Positions 4,359 through 7,300 of a stretch of DNA of 60,526 nucleotides are shown here, in pieces (position 1 is the stretch's first letter; every line of letters begins with the position of its first letter). The stretch is from Ginglymostoma cirratum (taxonomy: Eukaryota): assembly GCA_024137785.1 (NCBI GenBank), contig JAHRHZ010000089.1, forward strand, positions 10,328,777-10,389,302, written 5' to 3'. The notes beneath the pieces are model-generated. The model was not told the DNA's origin and ran no database searches. It saw nothing but the letters and a program-made list of their open reading frames with translations. The position numbers were made by a program, and so were the translations under genes.

Positions 4359-7300
4359 CTGAAAAAAGTAGAATAAAGATACTTTCAGTTTTCAACTCAC
4401 AATGCAAATTGGGCAGATATTCTTCAGTAATGATTGTGTTAACTTACATGCAACAACTTGTAAGTCTTTTTTCAAATGTTACTGAAAATTACGTCCTCCA
4501 CCTTATTTATTCTGGTTTTCCTCCCCTAATGTTCCTTCAGAAGCCATAAAAGGAGGATTCTCAGAGTTCTGGTCACCCTTACTTTGTGTTAGCTGACTAG
4601 CCTGACCTTTGTAATTCTCAATTTCTTCCCATGCTCTATTGCCAGGTGTCAATTTTTATTGTCACAAGGCAGTCCACTCCTGTTACCTTTTCAAGGTGTC
4701 CCTAGTTCTCCCCAAGAAAGCTATTGTGTCCGGGTAACCATGGAGTTTAATTCAGTTCCTCAGAATGAGACTGCAGTGTTCTATGACTTGAGCTAACTGC
4801 CTTGTCAATTTCCCTATTCCGTAAACATGAGAACTGAAATTGCATGCTTCACAATCCAAGGCAAACAAATTTGTCTTTCATGCTGCACAGTTAAATTTAA
4901 TGTTCTTATTAACTTTAATCGGAAACAAATCTCCCAAACATACCGTGCAACCATCTTCCAAGACAGTATATGTGAACCTGCTGTTTCCTTCAGCTCTGAT
5001 TTCAATGTCATTCGAGCCTTGCAATAGGAGGGCCTTCTTCAGATTGCCAGAAGCTCTATCCATGTAGGCAATGCTGTTCTTACAGTGATAGGTGATGTTC
5101 TGGGAGGCCTCAGTAGACAGTAGACGCAGGAAAGTCATCTGGATGGCAGCAGTATTGGCTGTCAAACTACCATCGCCATAGCTGAACTGTAAGAGAAGAG
5201 AAAAAAAAGACTCCTTGAAGAGTCTCACAATGCGTATCTTATCTAAGCACTTCCCAGGAGCCTGGAAATGAAGGACCAGGGAGGTTTCAAGTTAAATCTG
5301 CAGTCTGCCGATCTCTCAGCTAATGAGACACTACAACTGCCCTTTGTCCAGCCAACATTTAGAGCGGGAGAAAATCAACTGGAGTTCTTAATCATTATCA
5401 GGAGACAATCAATAAGACTACCTCAGACAAACTATCACATTGTCGAGGGAGATTTCTGATGAAGGGTTTCGGCCCGAAACGTCAAGTTTTCCTGCTCCTA
5501 TGATGCTGCTTGACCTGCTGTGTTCATCCAGCCCCATGCTTGTTATCTCACATTGTCGAGGGATGTGTGAAAATCTAAAGCTGTTAATGCAATGGAGGGA
5601 GAAGACCAGCAGCTAGTCCTAATGGTAAAGGTTGCACGGATGAATACTGACTGGGTTTCAAGGTGTGAAGATGCCACTTCTGGTCAGCATGAATGAGATA
5701 GACATTTAAGAGACTTGCCAAAGTCACTTGGGCAGGGTTAAAATCCTAAAGGAAATGAGTCAAAATTTAGGAAATGAGAATCCAGAAGGAACTGCTTCAT
5801 TCAAACTGTAATTGACAGTGTCAACAGGTTCAAGAGACAATAGTGTGGGTTATTCTTTCTCCCTCCGCTTCTCCTGAAGGTTTAGCAGGCCTCTCATTGG
5901 AATGCAAATCCCTCCCTAACCAAAGAGTATGAAGACGACTGCAGTGCCCCAGTTGAGATCGACACACTCAGCGCAGAGTTGGTCACTGGATCTGGTGGCT
6001 GTTTGATCTTGCTAAAATATTCAACAGATAAACTGACCCAACCATTGACTGAACTTAGCAAAGATAAAAAGAATATAGTGACAATGCAGGTAGACAGCGT
6101 CTGCCAAAAAGAGATGTGTATTTAATGTGACTGGTCTCCTGTTCCTATAAAGTTGAACATTCTATTGTAAAAGTCCTCAAGTAGGTCACCTGGGCAGACA
6201 GCATTTCCTTTTGGTGTGAGGAAAGGTTTGCACTAACTCAATGGATGATACATATTCAGCATTAATCACTTTTTTTTATTGTTAATCTCCATGTAAGATT
6301 TACTCAGGTACTTACGTGGAAACCACCATTCATAGTCTCGCCAAACCATACATGCTTCTTCTCTTTTCCCTTGCTTGTCCACCAGTTCTTGCGCGGAATG
6401 CTTGTTGGGTTGGGATAGACGCAGGTCTCACCAGTTTCCATGTTACAGAAGACCTTGATGGCATCGAGTGTGCAGCCCTGGTTAGGATCGATCCAGTAAT
6501 CACCTGCGACATATTCGCAAACTCAGAAATAGTTGACACTTCACACCATTCCATGCTGGACACTTCCATCCACAAAGCATGCAATTCAGTTAAAACGCTG
6601 ATACAGAATGTGAACTTTTTAACCCGTTAATGTCATCTGGAATGAGACCTTAGAAACAATTTTCAAGTATTTATCTTTGTTTCAGTTAAATTAATTTAGC
6701 GAGCATATATTGCAATATGCAAAAGATCAGACATTTGAAATATTGAGGTGCAGTTGTTTTGCCAGATCCCACCAAGCTGGCTGCAAAGGTGCAGCTGAAA
6801 CAATTACAGAATTCTAACAATGTCACTAAAATTTACTGCGAGTGCTCCATCTTAGGCAATTCTGCTGGTATCATTTTGGATTCTCACGTCTACCTACCGC
6901 TCTTCCAGTCTGAGTGACAAAGTTTCAGGTCTCGGCAGGTACGAGCTGGGTTTTTCTTGCTTCCTTCTGGGCTGCGGATATTTTCAATTTGGTTGTTGAG
7001 GGATTTCAGGGTGGCATCAACCTCAGCATCATGTTGGCGCAGGAATGGAGCAGCCTGGTCAGCCCGGAAGTATCGGAGTGGGTCGGGAGCTTTCTCAGGT
7101 TGTGCCAGGCCAGCGAAGGCAGACATATCGATACCAGGGCCTGGAGGACCAGGGGGACCAGGAGGACCAGCATTACCAGGAGGACCCTGTTGGGAAATAT
7201 CCAGAGTGACATTAAAACATGTGACACAATAACTTGGGGGGGGGGGCCCCCCCCGATAAGCTCATTAGTCACGGGAAACAATAAACGAGGGAAAGAACTT

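What the first reader, a model, noticed from the sequence alone, without database searches (positions are those of the whole stretch)
5435..5563. Minimal hammerhead ribozyme inside a ~97-bp insertion with a perfect 16-bp target-site duplication
Seen: CUGAUGA-A-[GGGU UUCG GCCC]-GAAA-CG-UC. This is the full hammerhead catalytic core with a UUCG-capped stem II and a palindromic ACGU mini stem III. The insertion starts 5 nt before the core and is flanked by TCACATTGTCGAGGGA on both sides. Established: Penelope-like retroelements and retrozymes carry minimal type I hammerheads whose palindromic stem III allows cleavage as dimers. Inference: this is a young non-autonomous ribozyme-bearing retroelement family. 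Across four copies (5456, 22550, 31043, 58359) the stem II arms are invariant while the loop varies (TTCG, CTAG, CCAG, TTAG), as expected if the structure is under selection.
Basis: partly seen in the sequence, partly recalled or inferred. Interest (0 to 1): 0.8.

Follow-up and report, generated by a model that had tools for sequence, protein, structure and literature searches.

The report
Hammerhead-bearing stub of a Penelope retrotransposon
The 97-base insert is the ribozyme-shaped end piece of a very common, protein-coding Penelope-type jumping gene rather than a family of its own, and its extra first letter G, shared by many sister copies, suggests it was likely copied from a capped RNA that the predicted ribozyme had not cut.

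Summary
In detail: an intact minimal hammerhead (5452-5487) in a 97-bp insert with an exact 16-bp target-site duplication, antisense in a fibrillar-collagen intron. The interpretation needs correcting. The insert is identical to the hammerhead-plus-tail end of the pseudo-LTR of an autonomous Penelope-like element (RT plus GIY-YIG, Neptune/Nematis-type linker, about 3.5 kb). One exact 32-nt variant occurs 22,640 times. Such hammerheads are published. Invariant stem II arms among sibling copies show no selection: the tail is equally invariant and G12 decays.

New here is a junction footprint. Copies preferentially begin 4-5 nt upstream of the core (2,455 and 1,735 pattern hits versus 681 at a control position). 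There is no peak at the cleavage site. A non-templated G abuts this start in 13 of 14 solo insertions with extra bases and in 7 of 10 internal tandem junctions, one after 13 A's.

Likely mechanism: reverse transcription starts internally at the tail of a capped, uncleaved RNA and runs off at the cap, giving this stub, or jumps to another RNA end, giving partial tandems. Cleavage, cap and promoter are untested. New member of a known kind.

The parts
5435..5450 (.). Target-site duplication, left copy (16 bp)
   Evidence: exact match
5451..5451 (+). Extra G, in neither the duplication nor the element (the element has C here); likely a copied RNA cap
   Evidence: family statistics
5452..5487 (+). 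Minimal type I hammerhead: stem I 5452-5455/5484-5487, core 5456-5462, extra A 5463, stem II 5464-5475, GAAA 5476-5479, palindromic ACGT 5479-5482, predicted cleavage after 5483
   Evidence: descriptor features as in PMC4209133
5488..5547 (+). pLTR sequence downstream of the ribozyme, ending at the first of two preferred 3' ends (TTGTTATC); the next 2 nt (TC) are shared with the start of the duplication
5548..5563 (.). Target-site duplication, right copy
22547..22672 (+). Sister stub starting 3 nt before the core, with the long tail; stem III CpG decayed
31040..31166 (+). Older-subfamily stub (CTGAAGA core), G12 and stem III CpG decayed
41757..42392 (.). Head-to-head inverted insertion of the same family around a 400-N gap, with a 15-bp duplication (41757-41771 / 42378-42392)
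58202..58459 (+). 5'-truncated copy (58240-58452, begins 118 nt before the core) with an inverted tail piece (58212-58240) and a 13-bp duplication (58202-58214 / 58447-58459)
4881..6522 (-). Host context: two C-propeptide exons of a fibrillar collagen gene flank the insert, which is antisense in the intron
   Evidence: Pfam COLFI, E 3e-35 and 3e-29

Best explanation
The insert is the hammerhead-plus-tail end of the pseudo-LTR of an abundant autonomous Penelope-like retrotransposon, and it likely arose when the element's reverse transcriptase started internally at the tail near the 5' end of a capped, uncleaved element RNA and ran off that RNA's end about 97 nt later. Shown: identity with ORF-bearing copies; two preferred 3' ends about 34 nt apart; a preferred 5' start 4-5 nt upstream of the core; a non-templated G at that start; no excess of starts at the cleavage site; 9-17-bp duplications; 1-4 nt overlap between target and tail. 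Inferred: the start is the transcription start site; the G is the copied 7-methyl-G cap; the GIY-YIG nuclease makes staggered nicks and the target primes with short pairing. Also inferred: when the enzyme instead jumps from the cap to the 3' end of another (truncated or polyadenylated) element RNA it builds partial tandems, and when it folds back it builds inverted pairs. The stub itself is likely a dead, neutrally decaying intronic passenger; the ribozyme is likely weak, protein-assisted and under selection only in source elements.
For: Autonomous source: L046 frame has RVT_1 (27.6 bits, E 2.9e-6, below the 29.6 cut-off) and GIY-YIG (23.9 bits, above cut-off). L296 has an unbroken 1065-residue frame. 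L297 and L298 have a hammerhead at each end, 3503 nt core to core in L297. 3' ends: 25 of 62 random-sample matches end at +87..97 and 21 at +122..134, the two-site tail of PMC11167929. 5' ends, genome-wide exact patterns with a non-C base in front: 2,455 at -4, 1,735 at -5, 681 at control +1, 997 at the cleavage product +28 (10 of 30 inspected there were only point changes in longer copies, versus 7 of 85 at -4). Random sample: 11 ends in the 8 positions -8..-1 versus 14 in the 36 positions 0..35 (13 of 62 ends next to N dropped). G in front, hand-counted in the first 100 listed rows: 65 (-4), 35 (-5), 13 (+1), 19 (+28). Solo insertions at -4 with a duplication and extra bases: 13 of 14 end in G (binomial p 4e-7 against 0.27). 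Loci not chosen by that base: G in 13 of 21 non-inverted junctions at -4..-6 (p 8e-4). ORF-fragment-to-hammerhead junctions: G in 7 of 10, one preceded by 13 A's. Target/tail overlap averages 1.27 nt in 33 of 39 scorable solo insertions versus 0.34 by chance. PMC11167929 reports that uncleaved RNA is the dominant substrate in vitro; PMC4859970 gives untemplated 5' G as the mark of a copied cap in L1/SVA.
Against: No direct 5'-end data: the poly(A) RNA run shows no place where many molecules begin or end, both strands about equally, and depth that follows copy number, so neither a start site nor cleavage was seen. The 5' peak is modest (3.6-fold and 2.5-fold over one control position), and many copies end elsewhere. 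About half of the G-ending extras end in TG, which re-priming on the element's own CTG-AT could give without a cap; leaving those out it is 7 of 8. In inverted junctions the G can come from the inverted arm (18 of 32 at -4). Controls with extra bases are few (1 of 2 at +1, 0 of 1 at +28). Pfam did not report RVT_1 for the full L296 protein. The empty site could not be found.
Confidence: 0.72

Rival explanations
1. Ordinary 5' truncation: reverse transcription starts at the 3' pLTR tail of a long RNA and stalls just after passing the folded hammerhead; the G comes from terminal-transferase activity or microhomology re-priming, not from a cap.
For: Truncations occur all along the element. The peak lies exactly at the outer edge of stem I. 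Many extras end in TG.
Against: The stop lies after the structure has been copied through, and the fold is weak (-9.3 kcal/mol, z -0.7). Full-length copies also begin at -5 with a G (L168). There is no G excess at +1 or +28. One junction has 13 A's then G then the start (L152).
Confidence: 0.15
2. One reading: an independent non-autonomous retrozyme- or SINE-like family that is transcribed and amplified as a roughly 100-nt unit using the Penelope enzyme in trans.
For: About 4,190 of 22,640 exact copies of one variant start at -4/-5. Stubs carry the putative start site and the RT start site, so remobilisation in trans is possible. Head-to-tail neighbours exist (two listed hits 124 bp apart on C9; L176). 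bioRxiv 10.64898/2026.07.22.740005 derives animal retrozymes from pLTRs.
Against: No stub-specific variant was seen: only 2 of 30 copies identical to this one are stubs. Its 3' ends are those of the long element. No tandem array of the unit in the window. PAc needs the first 172 nt of its ORF in vitro (PMC11167929), more than such a stub would hold if this element behaves alike.
Confidence: 0.09
3. Ribozyme-processed circle model (PMC4209133): the hammerhead cleaves tandem RNA, the monomer circularises, and more-than-unit reverse transcription gives these inserts.
For: The core and its two CpGs are kept in at least three distinct hammerhead families of this genome, with compensatory stem I changes. 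Full-length copies have a ribozyme in each pLTR.
Against: No excess of 5' ends and no G excess at the cleavage site. Internal junctions lie 31-34 nt upstream of the cleavage site and carry non-templated bases, whereas a circle would give a seamless join at the cleavage site.
Confidence: 0.04

Closest known systems
Minimal hammerheads (min-HHR) in pLTRs of metazoan Penelope-like elements, incl. fish Xena, Poseidon and Neptune (Cervera & de la Pena 2014, PMC4209133)
   Same: 4-bp helix I, extra nucleotide between 9 and 10.1, G10.1-C11.1 pair, palindromic 15.2-16.2, no helix III loop; thousands of solitary copies, few full elements, opposite-strand pairs
   Different: Helix II is 4-5 bp here (7-8 bp in the schistosome families). 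Their proposed circle model is not supported by the junctions here.
Neptune/Nematis-type EN+ PLEs (features as in Craig et al. 2021, PMC8557442)
   Same: Single ORF with RT then C-terminal GIY-YIG; CX4CxxC linker (CNRRKCYTC); partial tandems, 5' inversions, optional tail of about 34 bp
   Different: Clade not tested by a tree; ORF about 1,050 aa with an Ala/Thr/Pro-rich repeat in the N-terminal part
PAc, Poseidon of Anolis carolinensis (Frangieh et al. 2024, PMC11167929)
   Same: Two internal RT start sites defining the tail; hammerhead just upstream; uncleaved RNA as template
   Different: In PAc the ORF starts within the ribozyme and the start site is AC-rich and non-homologous to the target. 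Here the long ORF's first Met is about 167 nt after the core, the tail ends are (T)TATCTC, and target and tail overlap by 1-4 nt in 21 of 33 cases. I saw no cap-G analysis in the main text read.
Non-LTR retrozymes of animals (PMC7229834; bioRxiv 10.64898/2026.07.22.740005)
   Same: Type I hammerhead in a short non-coding unit related to a pLTR
   Different: This is a solitary stub with a minimal ribozyme and a target-site duplication, not a tandem array of 150-450-bp units; no circRNA shown

Membership tests
Minimal type I hammerhead of PLEs | Core CUGANGA...GAAA...UH with helices I and II | tested here: met
Minimal type I hammerhead of PLEs | Extra nt between 9 and 10.1, G10.1-C11.1 pair, palindromic 15.2-16.2 | tested here: met
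   A5463; G5464-C5475; ACGT 5479-5482; criteria
Minimal type I hammerhead of PLEs | Self-cleavage (dimer or protein-assisted) | not testable with these tools
   Only energies; RNA-seq shows no end pile-up but has little power
Rfam hammerhead families | Score at the gathering threshold of an Rfam model | tested here: not met
   no hammerhead hit
EN+ Penelope-like element | Single ORF with RT and C-terminal GIY-YIG linked to the repeat | tested here: met
   RVT_1 significant but below its cut-off, GIY-YIG above; met by sister copies, not by the stub
EN+ Penelope-like element | pLTRs from partial tandems, 5' inversions, optional 30-40-bp tail, hammerhead in pLTR | tested here: met
Neptune/Nematis clades | CX2-5CxxC linker before GIY-YIG | tested here: met
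   CNRRKCYTC in P0001; criterion
Neptune/Nematis clades | Placement in the RT phylogeny | not tested
Non-LTR retrozyme | Tandem array of ribozyme-bearing units | tested here: not met
   Single unit; no array in the window; only occasional dimers elsewhere
Non-LTR retrozyme | Abundant circular RNA | not testable with these tools
   Only poly(A) and one low-coverage raw RNA run were available
Independent non-autonomous family | Own diagnostic sequence, absent from autonomous copies | tested here: not met
   100% identical to ORF-bearing copies; 28 of 30 identical copies extend upstream

The most novel reading that the evidence does not exclude
The hammerhead region is also the element's internal Pol II promoter. 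The initiator (CCATTTC, fitting the recalled YYANWYY consensus) is the 5' strand of stem I, and the palindromic ACGT lies at +28..+31, the downstream-promoter position (only 5 of 8 match to the RGACGTGY of Drosophila Penelope, PMC2377424). Penelope pseudo-LTRs and partial tandems would then be built by internal initiation near the cap followed by cap-to-3'-end template jumps, with no ribozyme cleavage or circle needed. Every stub would be a portable promoter-ribozyme-RT-start cassette scattered in hundreds of thousands of copies.
Probability: 0.25. Interest if true: 0.68.

Novelty: new member of a known kind. Interest (0 to 1): 0.4.

Why it matters
The ribozyme and the element type are published, so the feature itself is ordinary. 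How Penelope-like elements make their pseudo-LTRs, and what the hammerhead is for, are still open questions. This young, very abundant family records the template's 5' end in thousands of junctions. The record points to a capped, uncleaved RNA and to template jumps from the cap, not to ribozyme-made circles. That is in vivo genomic support for, and an extension of, the one in vitro study, and it is directly testable by 5'-RACE/CAGE and a junction census.

Tried and rejected
Rfam scans: no hammerhead model hit. Selection read from the four window copies: rejected. My first impression that CTGAAGA at 31043 is a broken core: rejected, since position 7 is free and A marks an older subfamily (18 of 31 copies). 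Empty target site: the right flank is single-copy, and none of four runs covered the flanks, so the duplication is not confirmed by an empty allele. RNA-seq for start or cleavage sites: none listed; X22 had only 11 reads. tblastn of P0001 against the window: no hit, so no ORF piece of this family lies in the window. Splicing as the source of the -4/-5 junction: no AG lies directly upstream of that start in the element, and the junction bases are not templated by the upstream ORF piece. Earlier scan notes: nothing returned.

Full report
Positions called -4, +28 and so on count from the C of CUGAUGA (window 5456 = 0).

1. Observation. The 16-bp repeat is exact, unique in the window and encloses 97 nt. 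The hammerhead core, 4-bp stem II and ACGT are as described, and ATTT/AAGT give a 4-bp stem I. Rfam does not detect it, and the loose core pattern is not above chance. A descriptor that demands stem II gives 29 hits in the window plus 79 random 10-kb stretches (444,923 non-N bases) versus 0-1 per shuffle. The insert lies antisense in an intron between two COLFI exons of a fibrillar collagen gene on the minus strand. The genome is 4.36 Gb. That it is likely a cartilaginous fish is my recalled impression of the repeats and was not tested.

2. What it is. A genome search gave 1,194 candidates; all 40 scored were 100% identical over 98 nt. Of 30 fetched, 28 continue upstream into shared sequence (20 to 1,500 nt, some cut by N runs) and 2 begin at the motif. 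The upstream sequence encodes GIY-YIG (24.9 bits in L001; 22.0, just under the cut-off, in L024) and RT (RVT_1 E 2.9e-6, under the cut-off, in L046). Walking upstream reached the 5' pLTR. L296 holds an unbroken 1065-residue frame with RT motifs, a CNRRKCYTC linker and GIY-YIG (Pfam reported only GIY-YIG for it). L297 and L298 have a hammerhead at both ends, 3,503 nt apart in L297. 5' inversions are common (32 of 85 loci in the -4 set). This is the anatomy given for EN+ PLEs, with the linker of the Neptune and Nematis clades (PMC8557442, passages). One exact 32-nt variant occurs 22,640 times. The random sample gives 42 merged insertion sites, or 53-94 per Mb depending on how N runs are counted, which would extrapolate to a few hundred thousand for the wider family.

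3. Selection. In 31 copies (random sample plus window) spanning the ribozyme and tail, non-CpG tail columns are as invariant as stem II, and the CpG columns including G12 (6 of 31) decay. Inserted copies therefore give no sign of selection. Subfamily-level differences within positions 0-27 fall on N7, loop II and 11.4 (G or A opposite U), all tolerated. Other families in the same sample keep the core with different stems: AGTT/AACT stem I, and TGCA-type stem I with a 6-7-bp stem II. This points to selection in source elements; it rests on few families and no formal covariation test was run. The monomer prefers an inactive fold pairing UGAUG with CGUCA, and the active dimer is far less stable than the best dimer fold in a model that ignores tertiary contacts. 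That agrees with the low activity in PMC4209133 (parts 1-2 of 4 read) and the protein-assisted cleavage in PMC11167929 (parts 1-2 of 4 read).

4. Ends. 3' ends cluster at +87..97 (25 of 62 matches) and +122..134 (21 of 62), the two-site tail that PMC11167929 traces to internal RT initiation. In 33 of 39 scorable solo insertions the duplication overlaps the tail by 1.27 nt on average versus 0.34 by chance (maximum 0.79 in 2,000 draws); the window copy overlaps by 2. 5' ends: exact patterns preceded by a non-C base number 2,455 at -4, 1,735 at -5, 681 at +1 and 997 at +28. The +28 pattern covers more loop variants, and 10 of 30 inspected there were point changes in longer copies, versus 7 of 85 at -4, 2 of 30 at -5 and 0 of 30 at +1. 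So starts peak just upstream of the ribozyme, not at its cleavage site. The random sample agrees: 11 ends in 8 positions versus 14 in 36, after dropping 13 of 62 ends next to N. The base in front is G in 65, 35, 13 and 19 of the first 100 listed rows (hand counts; genome G 0.204). Among 85 loci at -4 (the first 85 listed), 14 were solo insertions with a duplication and extra bases, and 13 of these end in G, as does the window copy. Duplications in that set are 9-17 bp. In loci not chosen by that base, G stood at 13 of 21 non-inverted junctions (17 of 25 in all; a few classed non-inverted may be inversions, and in L015 the G belongs to the duplication). Among 30 loci fetched with a 5' ORF probe, 10 join a truncated ORF piece directly to a new unit starting at -3..-6; 7 have a G there, and L152 has 13 A's before it. 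Untemplated 5' G is read as a copied cap in L1 and SVA (PMC4859970, passages). Against this reading: TG-ending extras may come from re-priming (7 of 8 end in G without them), inverted arms can supply the G, and control positions have few cases with extra bases.

5. Mechanism. Shown steps are listed in Best explanation. Inferred: a Pol II transcript starts at -4/-5, so it carries the intact ribozyme and the tail near its 5' end. Initiation at this proximal tail runs about 97 or 131 nt to the cap and gives stubs like this one. A jump from the cap to another RNA's 3' end gives partial tandems, and fold-back gives inverted pairs. An internal promoter is reported for Drosophila Penelope (PMC2377424, passages). 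RNA data did not test this: run X21 (about 24% read, 35,962 reads laid) shows both strands and no end pile-ups, consistent with read-through from host transcripts.

6. Known and new. Minimal hammerheads in fish PLEs, including Neptune, are published (PMC4209133). A 2026 preprint finds pLTR-derived retrozymes and PLEs across vertebrates, including one cartilaginous fish (10.64898/2026.07.22.740005, parts 1-3 of 5 read, supplements closed). Retrozymes are tandem arrays (PMC7229834, passages), which this is not. Template jumps and self-priming were proposed for rotifer PLEs (PMC3846280, passages). I found no paper describing a cap-type G at PLE 5' ends or tandem junctions in searches (listings only, except the papers named). 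The library lacks most subscription papers, supplements were not read, and Repbase/Dfam could not be checked, so the family is probably already catalogued and the footprint may be known.

7. Verdict. Real feature, new member of a known kind. Identity as a PLE pLTR stub about 0.95; capped-uncleaved-template mechanism about 0.7; interest 0.4.

Noticed in passing
window 4215-52942, minus strand: Fibrillar collagen gene with at least 32 Gly-X-Y exons and three C-propeptide exon frames; it looks col2a1-like by recalled resemblance (not tested).
   Followed up: partly
window 5456, 22550, 31043, 58359, 35940, 45148, 54326: All recognisable hammerhead-type copies in the window lie on the + strand, antisense to the collagen gene; this could reflect selection against sense copies in introns, but numbers are small.
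   Followed up: no
window 35935-36045, 45130-45250, 54290-54420: Decayed copies of an older hammerhead-bearing repeat family with different stem II arms (AGGT/ACCT-type); intact relatives were seen in L083, L131 and L136.
   Followed up: partly
L111, L122:4954, L127:3480: A third hammerhead family with a 6-7-bp stem II and TGCA-type stem I, probably a different PLE lineage.
   Followed up: no
G000:C9:11032635 and 11032759; L176: Head-to-tail stubs 124 bp apart, the arrangement that could cleave as a dimer and seed a retrozyme array.
   Followed up: no
L103, L181, L184: The first 10-14 nt of the element are duplicated at the 5' junction, suggesting repeated re-priming at the RNA 5' end.
   Followed up: partly
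window 53911-55457: 168-nt inverted repeats, 99% complementary, 1211 nt apart; probably a young DNA transposon or MITE.
   Followed up: no
window 19597-22340: Degenerate 29-bp minisatellite of about 2.7 kb.
   Followed up: no
window 24893-25670: G-rich 47/61-bp tandem repeat flanking a 400-N gap.
   Followed up: no
L063-L141: 44% of the random genome sample reads N (gaps or withheld stretches), often at the centre of inverted element pairs, so copy numbers and inverted structures are under-sampled.
   Followed up: partly
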